Of a stretch of 32,000 bases of DNA, positions 116-28,958 are shown one piece after another. The notes below the pieces were generated by a model, which was not told the origin of the DNA, ran no database searches, and was given only the letters and a program-made list of their open reading frames with translations. Every line of letters starts with the position of its first letter. Within the stretch, counting starts at the first letter, position 1. Origin of the DNA: Synechocystis sp. PCC 6803 substr. PCC-P (lineage in GTDB: Bacteria > Cyanobacteriota > Cyanobacteriia > Cyanobacteriales > Microcystaceae). The stretch spans positions 3,480,001-3,512,000 of the forward strand of contig NC_017039.1 of assembly GCF_000284455.1 (NCBI RefSeq). The letters run 5' to 3'. The position numbers were made by a program, and so were the translations under genes.

Positions 116-1234
116 TTAATCTAAAGAAATCCAATGACCATTTAGCCTTTGCACAATTGCTGTTGCCTCTTCATAACTTTTAGCGATCGCCCAAGTATGG
201 TGGGTTTTGCCATTACTTTCCCGCAGATAAATTTGATTGGGTAACAGGGGATGGTCAGCGGTGGTACGGAGATAATCTTTGTTCAATTTGCTATGGAATT
301 GGGAATAGATGGACGTATCCCAGGGTATTCCCCGGTCCCAACCCGGCACCACCAAAGGATTAGCTCCCAATAAAATTTGGCACGGCACTAACATGGGGCC
401 TTTATAAATAGCATAGGCGATCGGCATACAGGTATTAATTGCTAAGGTGACTAATTCACCATATTTATGCATTAATGATTGTTGCCAATATTGGGTAATT
501 AAGGTGAAATCTAACCCCGCACTTCCCCTAGTATCTAAGAGTTTATTGAACTTTTCATATTCCGTTCGCACAGTGGTGATTTCCCGTTGCCAAGCATATT
601 CCAATGGACTTTGACCAAAAACTATCTTGCCTGCTTTGAGTAATTTCCATTTTTCACCAATTTTTAAAACGTCCAATTTTGCCGGTGCTTGTAGAGTAAA
701 TTGATAATTCTTCCCTGGGTTTTCATTAGTTGCTTTAAATAGTTTGGCGAAGCTAGCCAGGGAACTAAAATGGCTAAAGGATTCGGGACGAGGAAATAGA
801 TAAAATCCTTGGTTTTTGAGTTGCATTACCCAAAAGTTACCAACATTATTTTTTTCTAGAACATCTTCTTGGTCAATTAACAGAGAAACCCGCTGACAAT
901 AAACTTCTAATATTTGGGGAGTTTCGTGATAAATGTCAATAATTTTACTGATGGGTAAATCTAATAGAGGAGGGGGTTGTTCAACTATTAAATGGGGATA
1001 GGCATCGGCGGGAAAGGCAGTGGGTCGGCTAACTACAGTCTCAATTTGACTGATTTTTTGTTTAAGGACTTCTATTTCTTTGATTAAGTCAGCATTACTC
1101 TGGGTCTGAACTTCATTATTTTTTTGTGCTTGAAAAAATCGTAGGGCCGCAAACTCCTGTTGTAACTTAAGTTGATTTTTTTCCAACTGAATCAGCTTAG
1201 CTTGATTTAATTTATCCGGTTGATTGCCAGCCAT
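116..1234 (-). CDS. Hypothetical soluble coiled-coil protein and last gene of the tubulin-like/actin-like operon. It carries the shared ~75-aa adaptor domain (aa ~130-208) and a unique ~165-aa C-terminal domain.
   Basis: 372-aa ORF with ATG start, 32 nt downstream of the preceding same-strand gene. The N-terminus is heptad-like and Q/K/E/L-rich (QAKLIQLEKNQLKLQQEFAAL ... LIKEIEVLKQKISQIE) with no TM segment. The motif FYLFP...APAKL...EKWKLLKAGKI aligns to the C-termini of the two upstream genes. HIP1 at 183-190. Confidence 0.7.
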   Translation of the reverse strand: MAGNQPDKLNQAKLIQLEKNQLKLQQEFAALRFFQAQKNNEVQTQSNADLIKEIEVLKQKISQIETVVSRPTAFPADAYPHLIVEQPPPLLDLPISKIIDIYHETPQILEVYCQRVSLLIDQEDVLEKNNVGNFWVMQLKNQGFYLFPRPESFSHFSSLASFAKLFKATNENPGKNYQFTLQAPAKLDVLKIGEKWKLLKAGKIVFGQSPLEYAWQREITTVRTEYEKFNKLLDTRGSAGLDFTLITQYWQQSLMHKYGELVTLAINTCMPIAYAIYKGPMLVPCQILLGANPLVVPGWDRGIPWDTSIYSQFHSKLNKDYLRTTADHPLLPNQIYLRESNGKTHHTWAIAKSYEEATAIVQRLNGHWISLD

Positions 1235-1266
1235 GTTGTTTAATTTATCTCTTACTGTTAATGATT

Positions 1267-2472
1267 TTAATTAAACACGCCTTTTTCGACTATTTGCCAA
1301 CGGCGATCGCCGACTAGGAGAAGTTTAGCGGGCTTGACTAGGTTAGGGTTTTGTAAATTGCCATAGCTGTCAAAAAAGGAACTGTTAGTCAGTAGTCTTT
1401 GCCAGCGGCTGAGCATTAGATTCGGAATTAACCAAATTTCTTCCCCAATGGTAAAGGCCAAATAGGAAGCTTGGCTCCTTTCTCCTTCTTCAAATTCCTG
1501 GCGATCGCCAAGACTAAGATTGCCTGCCTTGCCATGGATAACACTTTCTGTGGGCTTAAGGTATTGGAACTGGGATTGATCATCAAAAAAATTCTTATTG
1601 CCCTGGTTAAAATTAGTGATGCAATATTCTAAGCTGAGGCCAAAAGATTGGGTTGATTTTTCGGTATTTTCTACTTCTACTAAGGCATCTATAGCTTGTT
1701 CTTCATTGCTTATTGCATGGCCTTTGGCATCGATACAATTATTTTCTAAAAAATAATTATAAACATCTGCCTCGATAATCGAATCTGGTGTATTCGGTTG
1801 ATTTTCACCTGGTAAAACAATATCAGTTTGGGTAACATTAATAACTTTGCGTTTTGCACCCCTAGTAAGCCTAGAAGCGGTAATTTTTTTTAAAGTTTTG
1901 CTTCCCATTTGTTGGAGAGATTTATTTTTACTAGGCTTAGTTGAAAAAGCATTCAACAAGTCAACTGCCAACTTGCCGACGACGATACTCAAACCTATGG
2001 TGCCAGCAATAAACAAATAAATCAGAATTATCAAGTCTTGGCTTTTCTGAACACCAATTTCAGTGGTGGTTTCTGCCCTACCCGAATTTACTGTGGGGGT
2101 TGGCGTCGGCGCAATGGTTGGACTGGTCGACTCGTCTGGATAGTAAGGGGTATTATTAACTTGACTTTCCTTTGTTCGTAAACCAATCCAGCCCCTTTCA
2201 TCTACAGAAAAAGTGACAATTTTATACCAGCAAAAACCGTCATAAAATTTGGCATAGATGTCAGACAAAGCAAATCTTCTGCCAGCGGGAATTTCGGCAA
2301 TAATTTCACCATTAATATTGGGAATATCGTAAACGTCCAAATTAAAATCAGAAAATGACATCTGATAATCCCTCATTGCTGGACAAGGATTATTTTGCTG
2401 AGCATAAACTGGACTAATGCTCCGAATTATTACAACAATAAAAACAATTGCAAAATTTCTCAGTCTATTCAT
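1267..2472 (-). CDS. Bitopic membrane protein: signal peptide, bacterial SH3 (SH3b)-like periplasmic domain, P/T-rich linker, TM helix, basic cytoplasmic segment and the shared ~75-aa C-terminal adaptor domain.
   Basis: ATG at 2472 gives MNRLRNFAIVFIVVIIRSISPVYA/QQ (signal-peptide-like) and lies 8 nt after the upstream stop. The longest ORF start (2520) would overlap the upstream gene by 40 nt. SH3b-like segment: LDVYDIPNINGEIIAEIPAGRRFALSD...FCWYKIVTFSVDERGWIGL. Linker: PTIAPTPTPTV. TM: LIILIYLFIAGTIGLSIVVGKLAV, followed by a K/R-rich stretch (positive-inside). C-terminus: IWLIPN...KPAKLLLVGDRRWQIVEKGVF. Confidence 0.72.
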   Translation of the reverse strand: MNRLRNFAIVFIVVIIRSISPVYAQQNNPCPAMRDYQMSFSDFNLDVYDIPNINGEIIAEIPAGRRFALSDIYAKFYDGFCWYKIVTFSVDERGWIGLRTKESQVNNTPYYPDESTSPTIAPTPTPTVNSGRAETTTEIGVQKSQDLIILIYLFIAGTIGLSIVVGKLAVDLLNAFSTKPSKNKSLQQMGSKTLKKITASRLTRGAKRKVINVTQTDIVLPGENQPNTPDSIIEADVYNYFLENNCIDAKGHAISNEEQAIDALVEVENTEKSTQSFGLSLEYCITNFNQGNKNFFDDQSQFQYLKPTESVIHGKAGNLSLGDRQEFEEGERSQASYLAFTIGEEIWLIPNLMLSRWQRLLTNSSFFDSYGNLQNPNLVKPAKLLLVGDRRWQIVEKGVFN

Positions 2473-2480
2473 AAATTCAT

Positions 2481-3287
2481 TTATTTGTCGCCAAAACTCC
2501 CTTTTGAAGTTAGCTTCCAATGATTTTCTTTAATTAACTCTAAATGAGCAGGAAACTTGAGTTCAAATCTATCTGATACGGCATTCATTTCAAATATTCT
2601 ACTATCATTATTTAGTTTAATTAATCTTGATATTTTCGGCATGGTAGCATTGGGAATTAAGTAGAACTGATTATTGAATTGAAAAATAAGGTAAATAGCA
2701 TTGGCTTTATCTGAAATTGACTTAAACTCTATAATTGGTTCCCCATCAATAGCTCGTCTATTGTCTTTAGATTCTTCTGTTAGCTCAACAGGAATAAAGT
2801 TAGGATGATTGAAATAATCGACATTTAGTTGTGCGTACTGCTCAAGAATAATTTTTACTTGATCAATTTGTTCTTTTTGTTGCTCTATTTCCCCTACTTG
2901 AAGTTCATTTACATTAAAGCTTTTTGGCCGATTGTCGTGGTATCGATTGACTGAATTTAAATAATTTAACTGACTGCTCAGGTCGGCTACCTTTGTGTGT
3001 AAAGTAATATTTTTTTCTTTATATTTTTGAATTTGATTACTTAATACATTTAGTTGTTGTTGCACTTGATTGATATCGGAAGTATTCAAAAGTATTTTTT
3101 TTCCTTGTGTTTCTACGGTTTCACTGATTTTTTTGACTTTTCTGAAGTCTGATGAAAATCCACGCATTTTTTTGTTATTTAAAATACTAATAGCAATACT
3201 AACCATTGAAAATATGAAGGCAAGTATTGAAGCGGTAATGGAGATTGATATCCACGACTGTTCTGATATAAGTTTAAAAAATTCCAT
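2481..3287 (-). CDS. N-terminally TM-anchored coiled-coil protein with the shared ~75-aa C-terminal adaptor domain.
   Basis: 268-aa ORF, 49 nt downstream of the 1072-aa gene. TM: WISISITASILAFIFSMVSIAISIL, followed by NNKKMRGFSSDFRKVKK (cytoplasmic side). About 120 aa are heptad-rich (QQQLNVLSNQIQKYKEKNITLHTKVADLSSQLNYL). C-terminus: FYLIPN...KFPAHLELIKENHWKLTSKGSF. Very AT-rich with no HIP1. Confidence 0.72.
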   Translation of the reverse strand: MEFFKLISEQSWISISITASILAFIFSMVSIAISILNNKKMRGFSSDFRKVKKISETVETQGKKILLNTSDINQVQQQLNVLSNQIQKYKEKNITLHTKVADLSSQLNYLNSVNRYHDNRPKSFNVNELQVGEIEQQKEQIDQVKIILEQYAQLNVDYFNHPNFIPVELTEESKDNRRAIDGEPIIEFKSISDKANAIYLIFQFNNQFYLIPNATMPKISRLIKLNNDSRIFEMNAVSDRFELKFPAHLELIKENHWKLTSKGSFGDK

Positions 3288-3336
3288 GAGTTTGATTTTT
3301 TACCTAATTTAAATTCTATGAGACTATCAATTATAT

Positions 3337-6300
3337 TTAAGATTTAGACCACTTATCTGCAATTAAATCAATAAAACATTTAAGTACGATTAAAAAAGTT
3401 GGCTCTGCTTCAAATTCAGATACTGGGCCATGTTTCCGAAGACAAGCTTTCTTAATACGAGATTTCAAAATTACTTGATCGTCATTGCTCAACTGATAAA
3501 GTCCAGATCCATCAAAATTTCTCAATATATCAACTTCATTTATTCCTAATTCTTTGACTGTCTGATTAAAATTTTTAATATAATTTTCTAATTGGGAAAA
3601 AGACGCAATTTCAAACTGATTTATTTCTTCCCACTCATCATCAGTTTGTAATAAATCTTCAGATCCATAATCCTTACCATTGATTGTGCAAGACTCCCCT
3701 AGAAAAGGATAAGTTTTCTGGTTAGTTGCAATGCCCTGAAGCTTTTCTCCATCTTCTGGAACAACTAACCCTCCACACACTTCTTCTTTGGGATATTCAG
3801 ATAGCGTAGAAACCTCTGGATTGTATGATAGCCCAGATGCTTTTGTTAAAAGTCCCTGAAAAAGAATATTTACTTCCGATGATTCTGAAAATTCACCTGT
3901 TGGAGTTAGCCAATGTAGAAATCGAGAACCATTGCCACCAAAGAGAAAAGTAGTTGCTATTCCATCCGTGAAATGCTTATTTTGTACGTGTAGTATTCTT
4001 TGGATTAGTCCAACATAGTGAAATAGACCTCCGACAGCAAAACTAATTAGCGTTCTGAATTCACGATTTCTCCGCTTGTCGCAGTTGATAGCATAACCTT
4101 CCGATAAAATTCTTTCTGCATTACTTCTCATATAAGTATCAAGGGCAGAATCAAAGTTATTACCACTTAATACTTTCGCAACATTACGAGCAGCTTCTGG
4201 CGGCAAACCAAAAATTTCATCAGTAAAATTAAGATTACTTTCTAAAATGCGGTGAAAGATATTTCTTCCAGCAAATGGCACCGAAACTTGATGTATTAAA
4301 TTGTTATCTTGCCAAATTGAAATATCTGATGTGCCGCCTCCAATATCAATACAAGTTGTGTTAATGAGATTCTTTTTGAGAATATCGGCAAAAAATTGTG
4401 CAAAAGCAACGCTTTCAGTTCTTAGTCCTCTGTCATCTACGATGTGATTTTGTCCACTGACTAAATTCAACTGGTCTAGTACACGCTTCCAAGTAATCTG
4501 GTAACGATTGAGATCCATCGTGGAAAAAGCAGATGGATAAGAAATGGACCATTTTACTTCTCGAACTTCTTGCCATGCCGCTTGGGCAGCAATCATGCGT
4601 GCCAGTTGTGATAAAAATGGACGCTGATGCTGTACTTTTTCCCATTTAATGTTTGTTTTAATAAACTCTTTATTGAGTTCATATTTATCGAGCCGAGGAA
4701 AATATATTCGACCATCTACCACAAGCTCTGGAATATCTCCATCTATTTCTTGCCATCCCCTGGTGGTTAGCATTGCTAGCATGGGAGGATTATTACCTTC
4801 CGGTAAAAGCAGATCAGGAATGAAAAATTCTCGATAAATTACTGTTTGAATATCTTCCAAACTGTGGGTGATTTTCAGCAAATTAGTTTGGAGTTGCAAC
4901 CTTTCTGGAGTACCGCTAGAGCCTTTCCGCACGTAAACATTGGTAAATGACGTGCCGAAATCTAATCCCACCGTCCAAGTGGTGGCATTTCCGCCCTGGG
5001 CTTTGGGTATCCGCAGAGGAATAAGACCAAGCGGCTGGGCATTTTTATCAATCGCCAGGAGGACATCGGGGTAGGCATCACATTTCCAGTACTGATAACT
5101 TTCCTGACCCGATCGTCGATTTTCCGCTTGGGCATTGGGAGTGGGCTGATCCACCCGAAAAGCTAACTCACCATACTCTTCCGTGGTTTCCACTAGCAAG
5201 AAATATTCTTTCCATAAACTGGGAGGCACATTGGGCCAAAGCGCCAAGGTGGGAAAATCCTGCTTAATTTCATTTTCCGCCTTGAGGGGATATTCCTGGG
5301 ACATTGTATAGGCCACAGGCCGCTCAAATCCTGATATTTGCACCGTCAGCGAAATCCGTACCCCCGGGCCTTCAGGAGTGGAAACCGGGGCTAACTCCAC
5401 CTGTTTTTCCAAATCTTCACTGCTGAAATATTCCCGCAGAAAGGGCTTAAAGGGTAACAGAATGGTCAGATTATCCAGATTTAGCTTTTGGTCTAACCAA
5501 GTGCCCGGTAACAAACCCTTTGTTTTGTGGAAATAAAGATTATCTTGGAAAATATCCGCCGGGGTAGCAAAAATGGCATCGGAACGCCGGTGAAGATTAG
5601 GATCAAAATTGAGCAGAGGGGACGCGTCAATAACATTAATTTCCTGGGGTTGTTTACCTAACAGTCCTGGTAGTTGTACTGGATCAAGAATATAAAGTTG
5701 CTTACTGGGATTGCGACTGGCTGAAGCAATTACCCTCACATTGGAAGGATTTTGTACCGCCTCCGCTGGATATAAAGCATTCAACGGAGGTGGAGCTAAA
5801 GGAATACCAAACGGTAAATTTTTTGTAGTAGGTTGAAAGACATTACTGGTGGTGACCCCCAAATCTTGGATATAGTCGTCAATCATCCCCGAAACCCGTC
5901 CCGCCAAATCCTCATTTTGGGGATTACGCATCAAATTACCCTTCAAATTTTCCAACCAAGGCAACAACACCTCCTTTTGATTGGGAGCCAAACCATTGCC
6001 AATGGGATTAGTGAAAAAGCCATTTTTTATCCACGCAATACGGCGACTTAAATGCTCAGGAAAATAACCCGTGGGGCAAACAATGGTGGCCGGACTAGTC
6101 ATACCGATCGCCACGCCGTCCAGTTCAAACAAATACAACTCCGCCCAGGGACCATCGGGGGGAACCATGGCCAACACATTATCTTTATCGTTGGGGCGCA
6201 ATTTCCAAAGACAGCGGGCAAATTCCTTATCTTGATAATCCTTGAGCCGCACCTGGGTGGCAGTGATCTTAAGATTTAAATTTTCCGCCAGGGCTAAAGC

Positions 6301-6555
6301 CGTTAATAAACCTCGATATTGCTCAATTAACCAATCCCGACTGGGGTATTGTCGGTTGCGAAAAGCCGAAATTAATTGCAACGGCCGAGACCAAGGACTA
6401 GGGATAGAATTTACTTCCCGGTAGGCTCCTGCTTCAAACTCCAAACTATTACCCAAGCGGTTAAACAATCCCACTCCCTCGGCGATCCATTCCCCTGGAG
6501 CAGCGCCACCAGCAAAATCTTGATTAGTTTTGGGAAGTAGGGGTTGGTTAGTCAT
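3337..6555 (-). CDS. Large (1072 aa) two-part protein: an unrecognised ~525-aa N-terminal region plus a C-terminal actin/Hsp70/sugar-kinase-fold (ASKHA) ATPase domain.
   Basis: Uninterrupted 3.2-kb ORF. Phosphate-1 motif TWTVGLDFGTSFTNVY is encoded at 4933-4980. Phosphate-2 motif TCIDIGGGTSDISIW is at 4312-4356. The adenosine-like motif FLFGGNGSRFLHWL is at ~3905-3960. Order and spacing are as in Hsp70/ParM/MreB-type folds. I recognise nothing in the N-terminal half. Confidence 0.85.
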   Translation of the reverse strand: MTNQPLLPKTNQDFAGGAAPGEWIAEGVGLFNRLGNSLEFEAGAYREVNSIPSPWSRPLQLISAFRNRQYPSRDWLIEQYRGLLTALALAENLNLKITATQVRLKDYQDKEFARCLWKLRPNDKDNVLAMVPPDGPWAELYLFELDGVAIGMTSPATIVCPTGYFPEHLSRRIAWIKNGFFTNPIGNGLAPNQKEVLLPWLENLKGNLMRNPQNEDLAGRVSGMIDDYIQDLGVTTSNVFQPTTKNLPFGIPLAPPPLNALYPAEAVQNPSNVRVIASASRNPSKQLYILDPVQLPGLLGKQPQEINVIDASPLLNFDPNLHRRSDAIFATPADIFQDNLYFHKTKGLLPGTWLDQKLNLDNLTILLPFKPFLREYFSSEDLEKQVELAPVSTPEGPGVRISLTVQISGFERPVAYTMSQEYPLKAENEIKQDFPTLALWPNVPPSLWKEYFLLVETTEEYGELAFRVDQPTPNAQAENRRSGQESYQYWKCDAYPDVLLAIDKNAQPLGLIPLRIPKAQGGNATTWTVGLDFGTSFTNVYVRKGSSGTPERLQLQTNLLKITHSLEDIQTVIYREFFIPDLLLPEGNNPPMLAMLTTRGWQEIDGDIPELVVDGRIYFPRLDKYELNKEFIKTNIKWEKVQHQRPFLSQLARMIAAQAAWQEVREVKWSISYPSAFSTMDLNRYQITWKRVLDQLNLVSGQNHIVDDRGLRTESVAFAQFFADILKKNLINTTCIDIGGGTSDISIWQDNNLIHQVSVPFAGRNIFHRILESNLNFTDEIFGLPPEAARNVAKVLSGNNFDSALDTYMRSNAERILSEGYAINCDKRRNREFRTLISFAVGGLFHYVGLIQRILHVQNKHFTDGIATTFLFGGNGSRFLHWLTPTGEFSESSEVNILFQGLLTKASGLSYNPEVSTLSEYPKEEVCGGLVVPEDGEKLQGIATNQKTYPFLGESCTINGKDYGSEDLLQTDDEWEEINQFEIASFSQLENYIKNFNQTVKELGINEVDILRNFDGSGLYQLSNDDQVILKSRIKKACLRKHGPVSEFEAEPTFLIVLKCFIDLIADKWSKS

Positions 6556-6657
6556 GGTTAGTCAGGCAATTAAAAATAAAGCTGGGGGAAGGGAAAAATA
6601 GGGTGCAATTAGCCTAGGTCAAAAAGCTGATTCACAGTTAAATGAACGTAAAGCGGA

Positions 6658-8145
6658 CTAAAGTAAATCAAACAGGGCATGGGCTAAGCCAAAAACGCCT
6701 TTATCATAACTTTTGCCCTCATCTGCTAAACGGTTCTTGATTGTGTCCAGGCGATCGCCACTTTGCGCCGCTTGACTTTTCTCCTTATCAATAATTAATT
6801 GGTGGAGATGTTCACGATAACCGGGGTTTTGTTTCAGATCGTCCAAATGTTTGAGCTGAAAAAGTTGCTCGCCATTGACATGGGCAGAGGAAACCTGTTG
6901 GGCCCATTGCAAAAACTTCTTGGCCCAGGCTGTGAGTAGATCATTTTTGGCCACTTCCTGGGCATTGTCCACCAGGGGTTTATCCTCTTCCCCTGCCCTA
7001 AGAGCAAAAAAGTGTTGGAACCAAGGAGCACCCTTCGCAAACTTTTTACCTCCCAACTTCCGGGCCGCTTCCAACTCCAAGGAAAAGTTATAGAACCAAG
7101 CGTAGGCAAAGCGCACTCCCTTACTGAGGGCTAATTTAGCGATTTCGTCATCCGGCAAGTCCGTCCAAATCAGACTATTGATATCCCCCCGACTGATGTA
7201 GTGGGCCACCGTTTCCCCCATGGGTTGATCGAAACCATGGTTAGCGGCCAGGGCGGCGTACAGTTCGACAAAATGGGCCCCATTTTCCTGATTTTTGCCC
7301 CCAGTGTGGGAATCATACCTAGTTTGGGCATTGTCCCCAATCAAGTACACACTATCAAAACAGCCTTGGGACTGCTCCGTTAAGTATTGCAATGCCGCTT
7401 GGGTATTGAGGGCAAAAAAGCGAGTTTCGGCAAACACCGTTTGATCGCCGTCGTCAGGACGTTCAAAGGCAAAGTACGGTAACAACAAAGATGCGTGAAT
7501 ACGAACTCGAAGATTGTCCTGTTTTAACTGATTACTAATTAGTTTAGCCAGGGTAGGAACCCCGGAAGCTCCTGTTCCCCCAAAGATACTGCCAAAGAAA
7601 TGCACCACCACATCATTGCCCCGACCTACCCCTAAATCCGTGGTTAGATTATTAAATAGCTGTTGCCATCCCCCAGCCTGGGTTTGCTGGAGACTATCCA
7701 GTTCTAAACGACTCATCACCGCTGAACCGATGGGAGGCCGGCCCCGAAACCCCACTCCTAGATCGGCAGTTTGTTCCGCTGGACTGTAAAGGGCATCAAA
7801 TAATTTTGCTAAGGGAGGAGCACTGGCCCGCAAAGCTTGTTTGTTAAAAACCCCTGCTAAGTTGTTGTTATGAACTTGGTCCCCCAGGGGATTCCAGGTG
7901 CCGTAGTGGAAAAATTGTCCACTCATTAAGGGGCTTTTCCCTTGGCCAAAAGCTTTTTGGGCATCGTCGGTGGTACGGAAGTTGACCCCAGTTCTTTGAG
8001 AGTTGCCGTTAGAGGTATCTGCATCGACCAATAAAATTCTTAGTTCGGAGTTGTCGCCGTACAGCCCCAGGGAATGGAGAAAAATGGCCGCTTCCACGCA
8101 TTTAGCTCCACTGCCCCCCACACCGATGGCATAAATTTTTTGCAT
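6658..8145 (-). CDS. Divergent tubulin/FtsZ-superfamily GTPase (Tubulin_2 / FtsZ-like-type).
   Basis: 495-aa ORF. Motifs appear in canonical order: T1 IGVGGSGAK (aa 7-15, nt 8101-8127); T3-like GVGFRGRPPIGSA (aa ~130-142); T4 tubulin signature FGGTGASG (aa 188-195, nt ~7561-7584); then LLLPYF and YLIGDNAQ (aa ~267-274, compare tubulin xDNEA / FtsZ xPN). The ATG is 10 nt after the upstream stop, with a purine tract GGAGGTTAGAGG just upstream. HIP1 at 6751. Confidence 0.82.
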   Translation of the reverse strand: MQKIYAIGVGGSGAKCVEAAIFLHSLGLYGDNSELRILLVDADTSNGNSQRTGVNFRTTDDAQKAFGQGKSPLMSGQFFHYGTWNPLGDQVHNNNLAGVFNKQALRASAPPLAKLFDALYSPAEQTADLGVGFRGRPPIGSAVMSRLELDSLQQTQAGGWQQLFNNLTTDLGVGRGNDVVVHFFGSIFGGTGASGVPTLAKLISNQLKQDNLRVRIHASLLLPYFAFERPDDGDQTVFAETRFFALNTQAALQYLTEQSQGCFDSVYLIGDNAQTRYDSHTGGKNQENGAHFVELYAALAANHGFDQPMGETVAHYISRGDINSLIWTDLPDDEIAKLALSKGVRFAYAWFYNFSLELEAARKLGGKKFAKGAPWFQHFFALRAGEEDKPLVDNAQEVAKNDLLTAWAKKFLQWAQQVSSAHVNGEQLFQLKHLDDLKQNPGYREHLHQLIIDKEKSQAAQSGDRLDTIKNRLADEGKSYDKGVFGLAHALFDLL

Positions 8146-8155
8146 GGCTTAACCT

Positions 8156-8659
8156 CTAACCTCCATAAATTTTGCGTAATAACATTGACCCCGGTGGCAC
8201 GTAGCGCATGGATTTGGGAGTGGCTAGGGCCGTGGGCAGCCAGAAAATTAACAAGACATCGACAATGATGAAGCCCAGTAGCCAGAAAAATGGTTCTAGG
8301 TTACGGCTGTCATCAAACCAGCCGTTAAGGAAACTCAGACCCACTAGAGCCAACATGGTCACTACACCGAGGACAATGGCAAAAATCCACCAAAGACCGC
8401 CGGTGCTGAGCACGTCCTGGGCCTTGGTGAAGCCACTGCTGAGGGCTTTAGCAATCCAGAATAGGAGTAACAGCGCTCCCAATACATAAACCACGTAAAG
8501 GGTGGGGAATAAAATCTCTGCGGCCCATTTATCCAAGTTACCCCGGGATAAACTCAAAGGCAGTCCACTTCCCCCTAGCAACCATGGCTGTAACCCAAAA
8601 ATGACAATGGTGGCGATCGCTACTGTAACCACCAGGGCCACTATCTCCGTAATTTTCAT
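8156..8659 (-). CDS. Small integral membrane protein with 4 predicted TM helices.
   Basis: 167-aa ORF with four hydrophobic ~20-aa segments at aa ~5-23, 50-70, 88-110 and 122-145. It lies 57 nt downstream of the vWA gene and 10 nt upstream of the tubulin-like gene. HIP1 at 8613. Confidence 0.75.
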   Translation of the reverse strand: MKITEIVALVVTVAIATIVIFGLQPWLLGGSGLPLSLSRGNLDKWAAEILFPTLYVVYVLGALLLLFWIAKALSSGFTKAQDVLSTGGLWWIFAIVLGVVTMLALVGLSFLNGWFDDSRNLEPFFWLLGFIIVDVLLIFWLPTALATPKSMRYVPPGSMLLRKIYGG

Positions 8660-8716
8660 AACCCCTATCCTGCCGAACTAATACGTGAAGATTAGCAAAA
8701 ATTTTGATTAAGCAAT

Positions 8717-10126
8717 TTAATAGTGGCTATAGCCGAGACAAAACTTAACAGCATCTTGATTATTGGCCACCGCCCCCCGTAGTCCCGATACAAAAAGCAG
8801 TAAATTTTGGGTTCTGGCCCCGTCCGGGTTACTAATGTCCATATCCCAATCCCGCCACACTGCCTGATCCAATTGGCGATCGCCAAGGGTGACGTAAACT
8901 AATTTTCCTTGCCCCTGGGGTACCTGATTGCCATCAAAAACAGCGGTTAATAAAAGGCGGGCATTCTCTCCCCCGGGATTTTGAGCAATTTCTGCTTTTT
9001 TCACCGTCAAAAAGGGTTCAGACACATTGAAAAGATCTGGGGTTAGCTCTCCACCAGTGAGGGAAACGGTACTTTTAGAAGGAATATTTAACTCCAACGG
9101 TGGCAGAGGGCTAGCAGAATTTTCACCACAATTGGTTTGTTCGACCATAAGCCAATCCTTTTCCTGGTCTTGGTTTGGCCTCTGACGGTCTATGGAACCA
9201 ATGTCAATTACGCATTCTTGAATAGTGCCTTTTAAAGAACTGTTGTCTAGAGTCACCGTATCTGCTTGGCCAAGCTCAAAGGCGGAGGCCCGAAAGGCTT
9301 TATTGACATCTAAGGGAAGCTGACGGAATTCCCTTACCAATTCATCCACCGTTTCCTGGGGCCCCGTCATCAGGATAAAAAATGGTCTGCCCTTTTGATC
9401 CACGTCCTGGCCAGTGGTGTTGTAAACAAAAGTGGGATAACCAGCGTTGGCAGAATAAACATTGCCCCGGAACTGACTCCGAACTCCCAAGAGCACGGCT
9501 TTATAGTTGGGATTATTGTTTAACTCTTTGCTGATCAGGCCAGAAATTTGTCCCACAGCGGCATCGTCCGGTTCTAGGTCGGTGAGTAAAATTTTCAGAC
9601 TGCGGGTAGCACTGGTATTGGTGGAAGTGTTGCTATCCTCTTCACTCCCTTCATTTCTTTCCCCTTGATTATTAGATGTGCCGGCGGCCGGGCTTTCCAA
9701 TTCATAAAGTTGCCCCAAAGTACTGGAAACACAAGGATAATCCGCTATTGGCTGATCCCGACGACAATAAAAGGGCGCTTTACTGGCGGCCAGAAATTGG
9801 TTAGCAGAAATCGGTTGGGCCTGACTAATATTTTCATTGCTCCCCACCCGCCAATAGGAAGTGGGCAAATTTTTGTTTTGCAAAAGGGTGTGCAAAGAGG
9901 CGATCGCCTGGCCATAGCGACCACCAGGTTGACTGACAAAACCCACCATGGACTCACTGGCATCTACCCCCACCATTACATCCAGGTTTTCAAAAGGCCC
10001 AGGGGAAGATTGTTCGTCTCTGCGCTCTACCATCCCTTGGTCTGTTTCCACACAGGGTAAACCTCCCCTCTGGCCACAACCGGCTAATACTAGAGCCAAC
10101 AAAGAGAACAAAATCCAGCTTTTCAC
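8717..10126 (-). CDS. von Willebrand factor A (vWA) domain lipoprotein and first gene of the operon.
   Basis: The N-terminus MKSWILFSLLALVLAGCGQ is a signal peptide with lipobox L-A-G-C. MIDAS DxSxS motif VGVDASESM is at nt 9948-9977. The downstream KILLTDLEPDD matches the vWA 'LLTDG' strand. 469 aa. HIP1 at 8876 and 9900. Confidence 0.85.
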   Translation of the reverse strand: MKSWILFSLLALVLAGCGQRGGLPCVETDQGMVERRDEQSSPGPFENLDVMVGVDASESMVGFVSQPGGRYGQAIASLHTLLQNKNLPTSYWRVGSNENISQAQPISANQFLAASKAPFYCRRDQPIADYPCVSSTLGQLYELESPAAGTSNNQGERNEGSEEDSNTSTNTSATRSLKILLTDLEPDDAAVGQISGLISKELNNNPNYKAVLLGVRSQFRGNVYSANAGYPTFVYNTTGQDVDQKGRPFFILMTGPQETVDELVREFRQLPLDVNKAFRASAFELGQADTVTLDNSSLKGTIQECVIDIGSIDRQRPNQDQEKDWLMVEQTNCGENSASPLPPLELNIPSKSTVSLTGGELTPDLFNVSEPFLTVKKAEIAQNPGGENARLLLTAVFDGNQVPQGQGKLVYVTLGDRQLDQAVWRDWDMDISNPDGARTQNLLLFVSGLRGAVANNQDAVKFCLGYSHY

Positions 10127-10516
10127 GCAAAAACCCAGAAAGACAATAATGGAAATGATTCATCAGAGCGGGAGTTCGCCCATTAGCCTAATGCACTGCT
10201 CTGAAAAAATCAAGCGCCTGCGGGTGAGCCCAAGTCATTTCGATTCTAAGCGAGAGTTCCTTGAGTTATTCCCTAAAGCTTTAATAGTCACGGCGCCAAT
10301 ATTAAAGTGACCCCATCCCTTATCCATTGCCATTACACAGGTTCAAACAACTTAAACTGTTTTGTATTGTTACTAACAGATTAAATTTTTACTGACCGGG
10401 GACGCTTAGAATCTCCCCAAGCTGATAGCCCTGCTAACTAATTAAGCACAGACAGAAAGCACCCGGTTTGAATTGCCTCCAGGATAACCAGATAAAATGG
10501 GAACTTAATCACCCTT
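10127..10516. promoter_or_regulatory. 390-bp divergent intergenic region between the vWA/tubulin-like operon (-) and the helicase gene (+). It presumably holds both promoters.
   Basis: This is the only long non-coding gap next to the operon start. It is AT-rich (e.g. ttttgtattgttactaacagattaaatttttac). TAAAAT at 10493-10498 is a possible -10 for the helicase gene. No TSS data are available, so the call is positional only. Confidence 0.35.
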
Positions 10517-13500: not shown

Positions 13501-13549
13501 ACGGAATGCTCGCATTGCGGTGCAACAAATGAAGCGTTTTCCCCTCTAA
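10517..13549 (+). CDS. Ski2-like (HelY/Mtr4-type) DEAD/DEAH-box superfamily-2 RNA helicase with a DSHCT-like C-terminal domain.
   Basis: Motif I CAPTGSGKT, motif II VVFDEVHYISD, motif III SAT and motif VI QIAGRAGRRG are present. The C-terminus LVEQWALGMEWENLCRQTSLDEGDLVRLFRRTVDLLWQI is typical of DSHCT. There is no in-frame ATG near the 5' end, so the start is TTG 10517 or GTG 10529. Confidence 0.9.
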   Translation: MPKSVKTLAYANPADLFAFPLDDFQQEAIAALDQDQSVVVCAPTGSGKTVVGEYAIYRAIARGKRVFYTTPLKALSNQKIRDFQEKLEKLGLENAAQLVGLITGDTVINADAPVVVMTTEIFRNMLYETPIGEVGTSLEDVETVVFDEVHYISDRGRGTVWEESIIYCPSTIQLVGLSATIGNPEQLTEWINQVRTGVSLKVLRQGEQRNDSPPCVLVNSDFRPVPLTFHYSTRKGLFPLLNEKKTGVNTRLLPKAGNKNTRSGKNRRMRREDCPYPLLVMQQLQERNLLPVIYVIFSRRGCEQAAQSLEDLSLVEPAEQESIQLQLLDFFFGKNPLLRQKLERDLANGLPDLVQAVVAYLDHPQDSEAAQRLLTALAIDPEGMFKLWGWIAQSSPMTRFEQIEPLLRGIAVHHAGILPDMKTLVEKLFEQGLIKVVFATATLSAGINMPARTTVISALSKRTNEGHAMLSPSEFLQIAGRAGRRGMDTEGHVITVQTPFEGANEASYLALAEAEPLKSWFTPSYGMVLNLLQKHDLEEVKSLLERSFAEYLAQFALEPTKVAIAETVKKLSQLDIKLAGIGEKDLRSYEKFRGRLREEQRLLKILEEQAEKERKQQLKDQLKTLAPGQLLYLKGRHVKIHQPRLAVIVAPLAPAHNLPQWCCLGSDNRWYHVTVGDIYAVPIGNLSPAQWQHLTPPPAELLAPGKSVKGDEETLAIAAGLDPQTYPLEPSPELVEQQARVDHVEKLLAVHPLASQKHPGKLLEQFHQRQELRKTLSKRQQEYDRLQSRQSYYWQEFLDLIDILQEMEALEEYTPTLLGEVAATLRGENELWLGLALISGKFNDLEPEQLAAAASALITETPRSDAWTDFKPSPVVLAALRPSNDLFGLLFCLKHPQPPLALWQAMTVADHLQRLNLWDLRRKLIKAQNQRAIAIPLWLEVDFMGLVEQWALGMEWENLCRQTSLDEGDLVRLFRRTVDLLWQIPQVPHLSPRLKRNARIAVQQMKRFPL

Positions 13550-13659
13550 CCAATTGGCGATCGGGAGGATTTCCTCGAAAACGCTGGGAATATATCGATC
13601 ACTTGGCCACTAAACACTAGGCGGCCATGGCCTTTTACTACCCCCAACAAGACCTATTT

Positions 13660-13995
13660 CTACAGGCGACCTTGGCTGGCCAATTTATAGCCAACGGCCA
13701 TGGAGACAAAAGAAAGCAGAAATTCCCACAGACTAGTGGGATTAAGGATCGCTCGACTGCTAAAAAACACCAGCACCACGCCGATGATAATCGGTATCCA
13801 GCCCCAGGATTTTTCCCTGGCGGGCAAAAAAACTAACATCATCACCCCAGCAATGAGGGCCAAAATTGAGCCATCGGCGGCAATACCCCGCCAAAAGTAA
13901 GGATAAACGTTGGTAGTGAAAATGATGTTGTTACCCAGAAAATAGATGCCGGTGCCAATGAGAACTATGCCGATCAGTCTTGCTATTAGAGCCAT
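13660..13995 (-). CDS. Small hydrophobic membrane protein (3-4 TM), function unknown.
   Basis: 111-aa ORF made almost entirely of hydrophobic helices (LIGIVLIGTGIYFLG..., ILALIAGVMMLVFL, IPIIIGVVLVFF). Native-like GC. The antisense ORFs overlapping it look like shadows. Confidence 0.6.
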   Translation of the reverse strand: MALIARLIGIVLIGTGIYFLGNNIIFTTNVYPYFWRGIAADGSILALIAGVMMLVFLPAREKSWGWIPIIIGVVLVFFSSRAILNPTSLWEFLLSFVSMAVGYKLASQGRL

Positions 13996-14032
13996 GGTAT
14001 TGTCGTGGTAATTGATTTATTGATAATGGGCA

Positions 14033-15340: not shown

Positions 15341-15546
15341 GGTTAAACCATAAGTAGAAGTATAAAGAAGATTATACGCATATTCTCTGGGTGCGACAAC
15401 CAAAATTATGCGCACATGCAATTATTCTTTACAAAACTTAGGTTCTATCTCCCTAAGTTGACTTTTTGTGGCCAGGCTTGAGCAAAGGGGAATAAACCAT
15501 CGACAATGGACAGAAGCATAGATTCGCTACGAGACAGGAGAGAACA

Positions 15547-28956: not shown

Positions 28957-28958
28957 CG

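What the first reader, a model, noticed from the sequence alone, without database searches (positions are those of the whole stretch)
116..10126. Seven-gene operon combining a tubulin/FtsZ-like GTPase, a giant actin/Hsp70-fold ATPase, a vWA lipoprotein, a 4-TM protein and three paralogous adaptors: a candidate undescribed envelope-spanning system
Seen in the sequence: seven co-directional minus-strand ORFs are separated by only 57, 10, 102, 49, 8 and 32 nt. A purine-rich SD-like tract (GGAGGTTAGAGG) spans the stop of the 4-TM gene just upstream of the tubulin-like ATG. There is one 390-bp upstream gap. The predicted topology forms a coherent machine. A periplasm-facing vWA lipoprotein and a periplasmic SH3b domain sit outside. 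Three kinds of membrane anchor are present (4-TM, bitopic, N-terminal TM). On the cytoplasmic side are a GTPase of the tubulin superfamily, an ATPase of the actin superfamily, and coiled coils. Having homologues of both cytoskeletal NTPase superfamilies in one operon with vWA and SH3b modules does not match any characterised system I know of (cell division, plasmid/phage segregation TubZ/PhuZ, BtubAB, MreB, or the named anti-phage systems). Inference: it is either a membrane-remodelling/cytomotive device or an NTP-dependent conflict (defence) system with a variable distal module.
Basis: partly seen in the sequence, partly recalled or inferred. Interest (0 to 1): 0.92.

Follow-up and report, generated by a model that had tools for sequence, protein, structure and literature searches.

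The report
Conserved tubulin-actin envelope gene cassette
This gene cluster, found in many cyanobacteria, on some of their plasmids and in at least one Prevotella, pairs a tubulin-like GTPase with a giant actin/Hsp70-like ATPase, envelope proteins and a swappable set of adaptor proteins; I found no study of it, and it is probably either a new anti-invader system or a membrane-shaping machine.

Summary
The seven minus-strand genes, their spacings and the SD-like tract are as described.

**Core.** Four genes form a conserved core: lipoprotein, 4-TM protein, 495-aa Tubulin_2-type GTPase and a 1072-aa protein. All four occur together in 67 of 79 cyanobacterial loci. The same order occurs on plasmids and in a Prevotella.

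**Giant protein.** Its C-terminal half is a confident actin/Hsp70 fold with intact ATPase motifs. Its N-terminal 525 aa fold confidently but match nothing in PDB or BFVD.

**Distal genes.** All three carry one undescribed ~135-aa domain. That domain marks 1-5 genes in 68 of 79 loci, elsewhere fused to WD40, TPR or FGE-sulfatase modules.

**Mosaic.** Against close Synechocystis relatives, identity falls from about 95% to about 55% at residue ~600 of the giant protein, where GC also drops. The variable module therefore starts inside that gene.

**Unproven.** "vWA" rests only on a conserved MIDAS-like motif. "SH3b" rests on one weak hit.

**Closest relatives.** These are computationally predicted, uncharacterised systems: FtsZl1-vWA operons and tubulin/HSP70-containing conflict systems.

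**Best reading (0.45).** A mobile, NTP-dependent, envelope-linked conflict system. The main rival is a membrane-remodelling machine.

The parts
10127..10516 (.). 390-bp intergenic region between the lipoprotein gene and a divergent Ski2-like helicase gene. It is the likely promoter region of the cassette.
   Evidence: Coordinates; helicase domains. Similarity to the S. salina locus L004 ends at about window 10270-10280, inside this gap. No promoter consensus stands out above chance.
8717..10126 (-). 469-aa lipoprotein (core gene 1) with lipobox LAGC (Cys17), a second conserved Cys25, a MIDAS-like DxSxS...TD motif and a conserved Trp-rich C-terminal part. It is possibly a vWA domain, but this is not shown.
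   Evidence: Sequence. D55, S57, S59, T182 and D183 are invariant in 20 homologues. In 73 diverse members S59 is invariant and D55 and D183 are at least 90% conserved. The family has 576 representative clusters. No VWA profile or PDB hit was found. Present within 9 kb upstream of the GTPase gene in 72/79 loci, 36 on the same strand and 36 divergent.
8156..8659 (-). 167-aa protein with four hydrophobic helices (core gene 2), apparently translationally coupled to the GTPase gene.
   Evidence: Hydropathy. Present directly upstream of the GTPase gene in 76/79 loci. The gap to the GTPase start is 10 nt here; in six of the seven other loci read it is 10 nt or less or a 4-nt overlap, and 23 nt in L071. 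No Pfam, NCBIfam or PADLOC hit.
8153..8164 (-). Purine-rich SD-like tract GGAGGTTAGAGG spanning the TAG stop of the 4-TM gene, ahead of the GTPase ATG at 8145.
   Evidence: Read directly.
6658..8145 (-). 495-aa tubulin/FtsZ-superfamily GTPase of the Tubulin_2 (FtsZl1-related) type in a short form (core gene 3). Motifs: T1 loop GVGGSGAK (aa 8-15), T4 FGGTGASG (188-195), T5-like LLPYFxFE (221-228), invariant W327/D329, and a conserved C-terminal peptide GxxGLAHxLF.
   Evidence: PF13809 hits. Invariant columns. hhalign to the N-terminal domain of Nostoc punctiforme long FtsZl1: probability 62%, E 7e-5. The alignment to E. coli FtsZ places T4, T5 and a T7-like Asp, but at low probability. At least 1238 homologues; relatives in 226 genome stretches.
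4981..6555 (-). N-terminal half (aa 1-525) of the 1072-aa giant protein (core gene 4). It is a confidently modelled multi-domain region with no detectable structural relative. Within its low-confidence first ~55 residues are invariant short motifs (L6-L7-P8; S50, P52, W55).
   Evidence: AF2 model: pLDDT 85.0, pTM 0.78. Foldseek best E 0.02 in PDB and 0.06 in BFVD. No significant Pfam or PDB sequence hit. Invariant residues.
3337..4980 (-). C-terminal half (aa 526-1072) of the giant protein: an actin/Hsp70-fold (ASKHA) ATPase. Motifs: phosphate-1 DFGTS (532-536), connect E714-S715, phosphate-2 DIGGGTSD (737-744), adenosine GGNGSR (873-878).
   Evidence: AF2 full-length model: pLDDT 82.9, pTM 0.73. 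Foldseek top hits are Mbl/MreB, DnaK/BiP nucleotide-binding domains, BeeR, MamK and EutJ, E about 4e-8, probability 1.0, TM to target up to 0.57. FtsA/MreB sequence hits lie around phosphate-2. Invariant motif residues. The gene is directly downstream of the GTPase gene in 72/79 loci.
4700..4800 (.). Approximate recombination breakpoint inside the giant gene. Upstream of it (gene 5' part) the sequence is nearly identical to other Synechocystis and has about 0.47 GC. Downstream it is diverged and has 0.26-0.43 GC (1-kb windows 0.31-0.39).
   Evidence: Identity in 50-aa bins against S. salina L004 and P0123 is 92-100% in most bins up to aa ~600 (one bin at 76-78% in each; P0123 dips from ~aa 550), then 46-74%. 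GC profile.
2481..3287 (-). 268-aa adaptor protein 1: N-terminal TM helix, coiled coil, and a C-terminal adaptor domain (aa 140-264, window 2496-2870). This is the most variable position of the cassette.
   Evidence: TM. Weak coiled-coil-type Pfam hits. Leave-out HMM E 3.6e-14. BLASTP to the 417-aa protein E 8e-8. Only 25-31% identity to the gene at the same position in L004 and L001, where the core is 72-95% identical.
1267..2520 (-). 417-aa adaptor protein 2 (401 aa if it starts at the ATG at 2472): signal-like segment, a possible SH3b-like periplasmic domain (aa ~62-112, window 2185-2337), a Pro/Thr linker, a TM helix (aa 163-181) and a cytoplasmic adaptor domain (aa 284-416, window 1273-1671).
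   Evidence: Hydropathy. SH3_3 E 0.03, below threshold. Leave-out HMM E 2.9e-11.
116..1234 (-). 372-aa adaptor protein 3: N-terminal coiled coil, adaptor domain (aa 85-206, window 617-982) and an uncharacterised C-terminal domain. No TM segment.
   Evidence: Leave-out HMM E 1.5e-24. Homologues lie upstream or downstream of the core in other loci. No Pfam hit for the C-terminal part.

Best explanation
**What it is (shown).** This is an accessory, horizontally mobile gene cassette with a constant four-gene core and a variable array.
- The core is a periplasm-facing lipoprotein, a small 4-TM protein, a short Tubulin_2-type GTPase and a giant protein. The giant protein joins a novel N-terminal region to an actin/Hsp70-fold ATPase.
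- The array consists of genes that all carry one undescribed ~135-aa adaptor domain. That domain is joined to changeable modules: here a TM helix with a coiled coil, a periplasmic SH3b-like domain with a TM helix, and a coiled coil with an unknown domain. Elsewhere the modules are WD40, TPR or FGE-sulfatase.

**How it most likely works (inferred).**
- The lipoprotein and the periplasmic or peptidoglycan-binding modules sit in the envelope.
- The 4-TM protein, translationally coupled to the GTPase, ties the GTPase to the inner membrane.
- The GTPase and the ATPase form an NTP-dependent assembly or switch.
- The adaptor domains dock the variable modules onto the C-terminal (ATPase) half of the giant protein.

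**Most likely role (inferred).** It is an NTP-gated conflict (anti-phage or anti-invader) system. An envelope-level or intracellular cue triggers NTP-dependent assembly, which deploys the variable membrane-active or ligand-binding modules. In that respect it is analogous to the predicted tubulin/vWA/HSP70 conflict systems.
For: **Conserved core**
- All four genes occur in 67/79 cyanobacterial loci. The giant gene follows the GTPase gene in 72/79 and the 4-TM gene precedes it in 76/79.
- The same order occurs in Prevotella sp. oral taxon 299 and on two distant contigs.

**Both NTPases look active**
- The T1 and T4 motifs are invariant.
- The phosphate-1, phosphate-2 and adenosine motifs are invariant.
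- The actin/Hsp70 fold is confirmed.

**Constant core plus variable array, as in known conflict systems**
- The adaptor domain occurs in 1-5 genes in 68/79 loci, often in several copies per protein.
- It is fused to WD40, or to TPR plus FGE-sulfatase. Kaur et al. list these module types for their conflict systems (PMC7159879).

**Module swapping**
- Identity to close relatives drops from about 95% to about 55% at residue ~600 of the giant protein, together with a GC drop. The first adaptor gene is only 25-31% identical.
- The adaptors therefore co-vary with the ATPase half.

**Mobility and accessory status**
- The cassette is on plasmids of four Picosynechococcus strains and on a 47.5-kb MOBP plasmid of Gloeothece verrucosa PCC 7822.
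- Its chromosomal flanks differ between this window and S. salina.
- Two diverged copies occur in single MAGs (L005/L018 and L038/L059).
- Uma2 and MNT/HEPN genes are inserted between the GTPase and giant genes in relatives.
- One distant copy lies beside Fic, TelA and type I R-M genes.

**Link to signalling**
- N-terminal Ser/Thr kinase fusions exist to both the GTPase and the giant protein.
Against: - No recognisable toxin or effector enzyme (nuclease, TIR, protease, pore-former) is present in the window.
- There is no PADLOC hit.
- The window neighbours are housekeeping genes, not a defence island.
- The cassette is kept in a simple, uniform form in streamlined picocyanobacteria. That fits a physiological role as well.
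- WD40, TPR and FGE-sulfatase domains are common in cyanobacterial proteins generally.
- No experiment or expression data were available.
- All protein-protein contacts in the model are inferred.
Confidence: 0.45

Rival explanations
1. A facultative cytoskeletal or membrane-remodelling machine, as Makarova and Koonin proposed for FtsZl1 operons. The tubulin-like GTPase and the actin-fold ATPase would form membrane-attached filaments, analogous to FtsZ-FtsA. These filaments would shape, constrict or vesiculate the inner membrane or envelope. The lipoprotein and peptidoglycan-binding modules would anchor them, and the adaptor proteins would act as localisation factors.
For: - The GTPase is related to Tubulin_2/FtsZl1.
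- FtsA and MreB are among the best sequence and fold matches of the ATPase.
- There is a T5-like motif and a possible T7-like Asp329.
- A conserved C-terminal peptide on the GTPase recalls the FtsZ C-terminal peptide.
- Distant versions end with a large membrane protein plus an OmpA/MotB-like protein, as classical FtsZl1 operons do.
- The cassette is stably kept in picocyanobacteria.
Against: - The distribution is accessory, plasmid-borne and mosaic.
- Adaptors are hypervariable and carry ligand-binding repeat modules.
- FtsZl1-type proteins lack a recognisable T7 region and C-terminal polymerisation domain according to PMC2875224.
- The alignment to FtsZ has only 3.8% probability.
- The ATPase superposes slightly better on Hsp70 nucleotide-binding domains than on MreB.
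Confidence: 0.3
2. A trans-envelope sensing or stress-signalling device, or a surface-structure or transport apparatus, with no killing function. Periplasmic ligand binding by the MIDAS-like lipoprotein would be relayed through the 4-TM protein to NTPase switches and associated kinases, which would adjust envelope physiology.
For: - Topology spans the envelope.
- The MIDAS-like motif is conserved.
- Ser/Thr kinase fusions exist.
- No effector enzyme was found.
- Some versions carry OmpA/MotB-like partners.
Against: - No output domain (DNA-binding, cyclase, receiver) is present in the cassette.
- Expansion and swapping of adaptor genes are unusual for a housekeeping sensor.
- Plasmid carriage.
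Confidence: 0.12
3. A DNA or plasmid segregation system of the TubZ/PhuZ or ParM type, carried by mobile elements.
For: [quoted passage not shown]
- The cassette occurs on plasmids.
Against: - The Gloeothece plasmid already carries ParA/ParB.
- There is no DNA-binding adaptor of the TubR or ParR type and no centromere-like repeats.
- The cassette includes a lipoprotein and membrane proteins.
- Most copies are chromosomal.
- No phage copies were found.
Confidence: 0.03
4. A fortuitous cluster of unrelated genes with no common function.
For: No transcript data are available, and no promoter or terminator signal rises above chance.
Against: - The gene order is conserved in 67-76 of 79 loci, across phyla and on plasmids.
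- Gaps are very short or overlapping.
- The giant protein's C-terminal half and the adaptors were swapped together.
Confidence: 0.01

Closest known systems
FtsZl1 (Pfam Tubulin_2, PF13809) operons with vWA, OmpA/MotB-like, membrane and kinase genes (Makarova and Koonin 2010, PMC2875224). These are predicted membrane-remodelling systems and have never been characterised.
   Same: - The GTPase is of the same divergent tubulin/FtsZ branch.
- An upstream gene encodes a secreted or membrane protein with a MIDAS-like motif.
- Membrane partners are present.
- Ser/Thr kinase fusions occur.
- Distant versions of this cassette end with a large membrane protein plus an OmpA/MotB-like protein. The cyanobacterial FtsZl1 operons likewise run vWA, FtsZl1, B7, COG1360.
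   Different: - Here the GTPase is 495 aa, without the coiled coil and helical C-terminal domain of the ~1050-1130-aa cyanobacterial FtsZl1 proteins.
- Marine Synechococcus, where this short family is common, does not appear in the 2010 lists.
- The partner is a 1072-aa actin/Hsp70-fold protein that the paper does not mention.
- The adaptor-domain array is new.
- The vWA identity of the lipoprotein is unproven.
DO-GTPase/GAP1-N2 'GTPase-centric' conflict systems with tubulin plus vWA, or with HSP70/GrpE/DnaJ components (Kaur, Burroughs, Iyer and Aravind 2020, PMC7159879). These are predicted only.
   Same: - A constant NTPase core is combined with highly variable linked genes.
- Tubulin-family, vWA-like and Hsp70-fold proteins and TM components are used.
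- Module types are shared (WD40/TPR repeats, FGE-sulfatase domain).
- The proposed logic is NTP-dependent assembly acting as a threshold switch.
   Different: - No DO-GTPase, no GAP1 and no FNIII protein were found.
- In the paper the tubulin and HSP70 themes are described as non-overlapping and sit in Firmicutes and Actinobacteria.
- Here both NTPases are in one cyanobacterial or Bacteroidete cassette.
- The Hsp70-fold protein is not a DnaK-type chaperone.
The FtsZ-FtsA pair of the bacterial divisome.
   Same: - A tubulin-fold GTPase gene lies adjacent to an actin-fold ATPase gene.
- FtsA is the best Pfam, NCBIfam and PDB sequence match of the giant protein's phosphate-2 region.
- The GTPase has a conserved extreme C-terminal peptide, like the FtsZ peptide that binds FtsA (the analogy is an inference).
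   Different: - The cassette is not in a dcw cluster.
- No FtsZ_C domain was found, and Tubulin PF00091 scores only E 0.022.
- The gene order is reversed.
- The ATPase carries a 525-aa novel N-terminal region.
- The cassette is accessory and plasmid-borne.
TubZ/PhuZ and ParM/AlfA segregation systems of plasmids and phages.
   Same: Divergent tubulin-like or actin-like NTPases are carried on mobile elements.
   Different: - Those systems use one NTPase plus a DNA-binding adaptor and a centromere.
- This cassette has both NTPase types, envelope proteins and no DNA-binding protein.
- It is absent from the phage collection.
- The host plasmid has its own ParAB.

Membership tests
Tubulin_2 / FtsZl1 family (PF13809; PMC2875224) | Profile match to PF13809 at or above the curated cut-off | tested here: inconclusive
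   The window protein scores 20.8 bits, E 2.6e-4, below the cut-off of 27. Ten of 12 family members hit it at E<=0.01 (best 4e-7), and more than 60 homologues at ~40% identity carry a precomputed PF13809 hit. hhalign to the long FtsZl1 of Nostoc punctiforme gives probability 62%, E 7e-5.
Tubulin_2 / FtsZl1 family (PF13809; PMC2875224) | Glycine-rich T1 loop and GGGTG(S/T)G-type T4 GTP-binding signature | tested here: met
   GVGGSGAK (aa 8-15) and FGGTGASG (aa 188-195). G8, G10, G11, G13, G189, G190, T191, G192 and G195 are invariant in 32 sequences.
Tubulin_2 / FtsZl1 family (PF13809; PMC2875224) | Architecture: N-terminal FtsZ-like domain, extended coiled coil and helical C-terminal domain (~1000 aa) | tested here: not met
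   The protein is 495 aa, as are its homologues at 490-510 aa. The cyanobacterial FtsZl1 proteins in the paper are 910-1127 aa, mostly over 1040 aa.
Tubulin_2 / FtsZl1 family (PF13809; PMC2875224) | Operon partners: vWA (COG2304) protein; often a membrane protein 'B7' and an OmpA/MotB-like protein | tested here: inconclusive
   The upstream lipoprotein has only a MIDAS-like motif. No OmpA gene is in the window. OmpA/MotB-like and large membrane proteins close the cassette on distant contigs L088 and L089. Homologues of the large membrane protein follow the cassette in picocyanobacteria.
von Willebrand A (vWA) domain (claimed for the lipoprotein) | MIDAS motif DxSxS plus downstream Thr and Asp | tested here: met
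   D55, S57, S59, T182 and D183 are invariant in 20 homologues. In 73 diverse members S59 is invariant and D55 and D183 are at least 90% conserved. The Prevotella and L088/L089 homologues have no DxSxS match by pattern search.
von Willebrand A (vWA) domain (claimed for the lipoprotein) | Significant match to a VWA profile or to a solved vWA structure by sequence | tested here: not met
   There was no VWA family hit for the window protein, for 24 aligned homologues, for 10 distant relatives or for the isolated domain. Profile searches of PDB gave nothing relevant. hhalign against E. coli YfbK and YehP and Nostoc punctiforme vWA gave probabilities of 2% or less; only the MIDAS strand aligned.
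von Willebrand A (vWA) domain (claimed for the lipoprotein) | Rossmann-like alpha/beta fold with MIDAS at the top of the sheet | not tested
Actin/Hsp70/sugar-kinase (ASKHA) ATPase superfamily (giant protein, C-terminal half) | Two-lobed actin fold | tested here: met
   AF2 model pLDDT 82.9. Foldseek probability 1.0 to Mbl/MreB, DnaK, BiP, BeeR, MamK and EutJ, with 328 PDB matches at E<=0.001.
Actin/Hsp70/sugar-kinase (ASKHA) ATPase superfamily (giant protein, C-terminal half) | Phosphate-1, connect-1, phosphate-2 and adenosine motifs | tested here: met
   D532, F533, G534, E714, S715, D737, G739, T742, D744, G873 and G874 are invariant in 22 homologues down to 22% identity.
Hsp70 chaperone proper (DnaK type) | Substrate-binding domain with DnaJ and GrpE partners | tested here: not met
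   There was no HSP70, DnaJ or GrpE Pfam or NCBIfam hit in the cassette. Only the nucleotide-binding domain is matched structurally.
DO-GTPase/GAP1 conflict systems (PMC7159879) | TRAFAC-clade DO-GTPase(s) and a GAP1 protein (N, M and C domains), usually with FNIII repeats | tested here: not met
   None of the seven proteins has a P-loop GTPase, GAP1 or FNIII hit. That Pfam holds models for these domains is from my memory and was not checked.
DO-GTPase/GAP1 conflict systems (PMC7159879) | Constant core plus highly variable linked genes carrying repeat, lectin-like or effector modules | tested here: met
   An adaptor-domain array is present in 68/79 loci, with WD40 and TPR+FGE-sulfatase fusions. 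Module swapping between close relatives is seen.
FtsZ/FtsA divisome pair | FtsZ GTPase plus FtsZ_C domain; FtsA with a 1C subdomain and a membrane-targeting helix; dcw context | tested here: not met
   Tubulin PF00091 scores only E 0.022 and there is no FtsZ_C hit. FtsA PF14450 scores 25.1 bits, below the cut-off of 31.8, over one motif only. The neighbours are not division genes.
Known or candidate anti-phage systems (PADLOC-DB v2) | Match of any component to a defence-system model | tested here: not met
   Nothing reached E<=0.001. The single hit at the 0.1 limit was DruC, E 0.067, to the coiled coil of the 268-aa protein.
Bacterial SH3 (SH3b) domain (claimed for the 417-aa protein) | Match to an SH3b profile | tested here: inconclusive
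   SH3_3 PF08239 scores E 0.03, 14.9 bits against a cut-off of 27, covering 45 of 54 profile positions. It was the only hit for that segment.

The most novel reading that the evidence does not exclude
This would be a previously unrecognised class of trans-envelope machine in which a tubulin-like GTPase and an actin/Hsp70-like ATPase work as one NTP-driven assembly. The ATPase carries a domain of new fold. A dedicated new adaptor domain plugs interchangeable sensor or effector modules into that assembly. In effect this would be a cytoskeleton-based innate-immunity or envelope-surveillance system, spread by plasmids among cyanobacteria and into Bacteroidota.
Probability: 0.3. Interest if true: 0.9.

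Novelty: new variant of a known kind. Interest (0 to 1): 0.72.

Why it matters
- Divergent tubulin-like (Tubulin_2/FtsZl1) proteins are widespread, but to my knowledge none has a demonstrated function. This cassette gives a compact, mobile, genetically tractable example, because it sits on plasmids of Picosynechococcus strains.
- If the two NTPases cooperate, it would be a second natural tubulin-actin partnership in bacteria besides FtsZ-FtsA, and it occurs in a phylum that lacks FtsA (established knowledge).
- If it is a defence system, it would add a cytoskeleton-type mechanism to prokaryotic immunity, and it would matter for cyanophage ecology.
- The analysis also defines two uncharacterised protein modules for structural study: the 525-aa N-terminal region and the ~135-aa adaptor domain.

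Tried and rejected
**vWA test.**
- I tried Pfam on the window protein, on 24 homologues, on 10 distant representatives and on the isolated domain.
- I tried PDB profile searches with 24- and 73-sequence alignments.
- I tried hhalign against E. coli YfbK and YehP and against the vWA partner of a classical FtsZl1.
- None was significant. I therefore do not call the lipoprotein a vWA protein.

**N-terminal half of the giant protein.** I modelled it separately and searched PDB and BFVD. Only insignificant Ig-like beta-sandwich noise came back.

**Adaptor domain.** No Pfam family covers it; no family matched more than 2 of 101 members. It has no PDB sequence relative.

**Other negative searches.**
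- PADLOC and NCBIfam gave nothing useful.
- Rfam gave nothing in the window.
- Promoter and terminator scans were at chance level.
- Megablast of the cassette against plasmids gave no near-identical copy.
- The phage collection gave no homologue.
- hhalign of the GTPase family to E. coli FtsZ gave only 3.8% probability. The T7-like Asp329 is therefore a lead, not a finding.

**Literature.** Searches for this specific cassette found nothing. CoCoNuT Hsp70-like components belong to McrBC systems and are unrelated.

**Rejected readings.** I rejected the cell-division cluster, plasmid partition and a chance gene cluster.

Full report
**1. The observation**

The window carries seven minus-strand ORFs:
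- 8717-10126 (469 aa, GTG start)
- 8156-8659 (167 aa)
- 6658-8145 (495 aa)
- 3337-6555 (1072 aa)
- 2481-3287 (268 aa)
- 1267-2520 (417 aa from a TTG start; an in-frame ATG at 2472 gives 401 aa)
- 116-1234 (372 aa)

The intergenic distances are 57, 10, 102, 49, 8 (using the ATG at 2472) and 32 nt. A 390-bp gap separates the first gene from a divergent Ski2-like helicase gene. The tract GGAGGTTAGAGG at 8153-8164 spans the stop codon of the 167-aa gene, just before the ATG of the 495-aa gene.

Consensus promoter-like and terminator-like sites occur at chance frequency: 21 against 22 expected, and 8 against 12 expected. Co-transcription is therefore plausible from the spacing but not shown.

Hydropathy supports the stated anchors:
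- four TM segments in the 167-aa protein
- one N-terminal TM in the 268-aa protein
- a signal-like segment plus one central TM in the 417-aa protein
- none in the two NTPases or the 372-aa protein
- none in the first protein either; it has a lipobox (LAGC, Cys17)

**2. What the individual proteins are**

*GTPase.*
- The 495-aa protein hits Pfam Tubulin_2 (PF13809) only below threshold (E 2.6e-4).
- Its family is large: at least 1238 homologues of about 500 aa.
- Ten of 12 members hit PF13809 (best 4e-7).
- The T1 loop (GVGGSGAK) and the T4 signature (FGGTGASG) are invariant.
- hhalign links the family to the N-terminal domain of a classical long FtsZl1 from Nostoc punctiforme (probability 62%, E 7e-5).
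- A low-probability alignment to E. coli FtsZ places T4 and T5 (LLPYFxFE against KPFNFEG). It also places the invariant D329 opposite the catalytic T7 Asp212. That last point is a lead only.

*Giant protein.*
- Sequence methods see only the phosphate-2 region, matching FtsA and MreB.
- An AlphaFold2 model built on 22 homologues is good (pLDDT 82.9, pTM 0.73).
- Foldseek matches residues ~526-1072 to Mbl/MreB, DnaK/BiP nucleotide-binding domains, BeeR, MamK and EutJ at probability 1.0.
- All ATPase motif residues are invariant down to 22% identity.
- The N-terminal 525 residues, modelled separately (pLDDT 85, pTM 0.78), have no significant match in PDB (best E 0.02) or BFVD.

*Lipoprotein.*
- D55-x-S57-x-S59 and T182-D183 are invariant in close homologues and largely conserved in 73 diverse ones. 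This looks like a MIDAS site.
- Every profile test for vWA failed.
- I treat vWA as unproven.

*SH3b.* The call for the periplasmic part of the 417-aa protein rests on SH3_3 at E 0.03.

*Known systems.* No component matches a PADLOC model or a curated NCBIfam family.

**3. The three distal genes share a new domain**

- BLASTP links the C-termini of the 268- and 417-aa proteins (E 8e-8). It aligns the same motifs weakly in the middle of the 372-aa protein.
- An iterated HMM finds this ~135-aa domain in 168 ORFs from 67 of 80 related loci. They lie almost always right after the giant gene, with one to four copies per protein.
- An HMM built without the window or its closest relatives scores the three window proteins at 3.6e-14, 2.9e-11 and 1.5e-24.
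- No Pfam family covers the domain, and it has no PDB sequence relative.
- In other genomes the same domain is fused to WD40 propellers, or to TPR repeats plus an FGE-sulfatase domain.
- It behaves as an adaptor that attaches changeable modules to the system.

**4. Synteny**

A scan of one genome per species found 226 stretches encoding relatives of the GTPase. I examined 80 loci.

At ORF and HMM level, among the 79 usable loci (tblastn counts):

| Feature | Loci (of 79) |
|---|---|
| Giant gene directly downstream of the GTPase gene | 72 |
| 4-TM gene directly upstream | 76 |
| Lipoprotein gene within 9 kb upstream | 72 (36 same strand, 36 divergent) |
| All four core genes | 67 |
| At least one adaptor-domain gene | 68 |

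- Most of the missing cases are contig ends. Only L009 and L011 are genuine solo GTPase paralogues.
- The gap between the 4-TM gene and the GTPase gene is 10 nt or less, or a 4-nt overlap, in six of the seven other loci read, and 23 nt in L071.

The cassette also occurs elsewhere:
- It is on plasmids of four Picosynechococcus strains. It is also on a 47.5-kb mobilizable plasmid of Gloeothece verrucosa PCC 7822 that has its own ParAB.
- It is not in the phage collection.
- Prevotella sp. oral taxon 299 has the same order outside cyanobacteria: lipoprotein, small multi-TM protein, GTPase (E 2e-32), giant protein (E 2e-27).
- Two distant metagenomic contigs carry lipoprotein, 4-TM, Tubulin_2 and giant genes. 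These are followed by adaptor-domain gene(s), a large membrane protein and an OmpA/MotB-like protein.
- Homologues of that large membrane protein follow the cassette in picocyanobacteria.

**5. Mosaic structure**

- GC falls from about 0.47 to 0.26-0.43 (1-kb windows 0.31-0.39) below window position ~4750.
- Against Synechocystis salina and another Synechocystis protein, the giant protein is 92-100% identical in most 50-aa bins up to residue ~600. Beyond that it is 46-74% identical.
- The first adaptor gene is only 25-31% identical to its positional counterpart, while the core genes are 72-95% identical.
- The variable module therefore begins inside the ATPase domain. It was exchanged together with the adaptors, which argues that the adaptors work with that half of the giant protein (inference).
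- The chromosomal flank upstream of the lipoprotein gene differs between this window and S. salina.
- Relatives carry Uma2 or MNT/HEPN genes inserted in the GTPase-giant gap.
- Some MAGs have two diverged copies.

**6. Comparison with what is known**

*FtsZl1 (Makarova and Koonin 2010).*
- They described FtsZl1 as roughly 1000-aa proteins with a coiled coil.
- These sit in operons with vWA, OmpA-like, kinase, GTPase and membrane proteins, and the authors proposed a membrane-remodelling role.
- Their cyanobacterial examples run vWA (COG2304), FtsZl1 (910-1127 aa), B7, COG1360.
- The present GTPase is a short relative with a different main partner.

*Conflict systems (Kaur et al. 2020).*
- They predicted GTPase-centric conflict systems built on DO-GTPase and GAP1.
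- These carry either a tubulin-plus-vWA theme or an HSP70 theme, in Firmicutes and Actinobacteria.
- They also have variable repeat and FGE-sulfatase-type modules.
- This cassette shares that organisation but lacks the defining DO-GTPase and GAP1.

*FtsZ-FtsA.* This pair is the functional precedent for a tubulin-fold and actin-fold partnership.

*Literature on this cassette.* I found no paper on it.

**7. Interpretation**

*Shown:*
- a conserved, mobile four-gene core
- two apparently active NTPases of the tubulin and actin/Hsp70 folds
- a novel N-terminal region in the giant protein
- a novel adaptor domain in an expanding, recombining gene array

*Inferred:*
- an envelope-spanning arrangement
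- membrane tethering of the GTPase by the 4-TM protein
- docking of adaptors on the ATPase half

*Role.*
- The accessory, plasmid-borne and mosaic character favours an NTP-gated conflict system (0.45). So does the pattern of a constant core with variable modules, and so do the kinds of modules involved.
- Three points keep the membrane-remodelling or cytoskeletal reading alive (0.30): no effector enzyme was found, there is no defence-island context in this window, and picocyanobacteria retain the cassette stably.
- A non-lethal envelope-sensing role is also possible (0.12).

**8. Verdict**

It is best filed as a new variant of the predicted, uncharacterised Tubulin_2-centred systems rather than as something without relatives. 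The vWA and SH3b labels should be dropped until a structure or a better profile supports them.

Noticed in passing
window 14033-15421 (-): A low-GC (0.34) 462-aa ORF with a C-terminal GIY-YIG nuclease domain (E 2.5e-7) sits between the helicase gene and ilvD, amid housekeeping genes of ~0.50 GC. It may be a mobile or defence-type insertion.
   Followed up: no
window 28959-29807 (-), within low-GC stretch ~28000-31000: An IS630-family transposase (HTH_Tnp_IS630 plus DDE_3) lies in a region of 0.35-0.39 GC with strong GC-skew swings, next to an HtpG (Hsp90) gene at 30876-31961.
   Followed up: no
L004:11495-12586, L001:11657-12351, L006:11519-12082: In close relatives the short gap between the GTPase and giant genes (102 nt in the window) holds inserted selfish modules. 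These are a Uma2 endonuclease (L004, L006) and a nucleotidyltransferase, which is followed by a HEPN gene in L001 but stands alone in L004. The gap looks like an insertion hotspot.
   Followed up: partly
L001:12332-15644: In the MAG closest after Synechocystis, the giant gene is split into two overlapping ORFs (12332-12844 and 12747-15644). This is a frameshift, a pseudogene or an assembly error.
   Followed up: no
L044:17406-19598: Sphaerospermopsis kisseleviana has a second, N-terminally shortened paralogue of the giant protein (730 aa, aligning to residues 315-1065) embedded among the adaptor genes.
   Followed up: no
L009:31-1581 and L011:9938-11488: Solo paralogues of the GTPase (58% identity) occur without any partner gene. 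They lie next to a NurA-domain gene and an HtrA-like protease gene. At least one of these genomes also has a second homologue.
   Followed up: partly
P0040 and P0157 (metagenomic proteins): An N-terminal Ser/Thr protein kinase domain is fused to the GTPase (820 aa) and, separately, to the giant protein (1418 aa). This echoes the kinase fusions of planctomycete FtsZl1.
   Followed up: partly
window 6391-6555 (giant aa 1-55) and 6661-6702 (GTPase C-terminus): Invariant short motifs sit in the low-confidence N-terminal ~55 residues of the giant protein (L6-L7-P8; S50, P52, W55). The GTPase has a conserved extreme C-terminal peptide (GxxGLAHxLF). These could be docking peptides, by analogy with the FtsZ C-terminal peptide.
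   Followed up: no
L090 (Nostoc punctiforme pNPUN01 137000-152000): The classical long FtsZl1-vWA pair on this conjugative plasmid sits between a caspase-family gene and TPR, CHAT and Uma2 genes. That neighbourhood is typical of predicted conflict systems.
   Followed up: no
L085 (Picosynechococcus PCC 7003 plasmid, 222307-247824): The plasmid copy of the cassette lies next to an alternate F1Fo (N-type) ATPase operon and ergothioneine genes. RefSeq names two of its adaptor-array genes 'prefoldin domain-containing' and 'TM2 domain-containing'.
   Followed up: no
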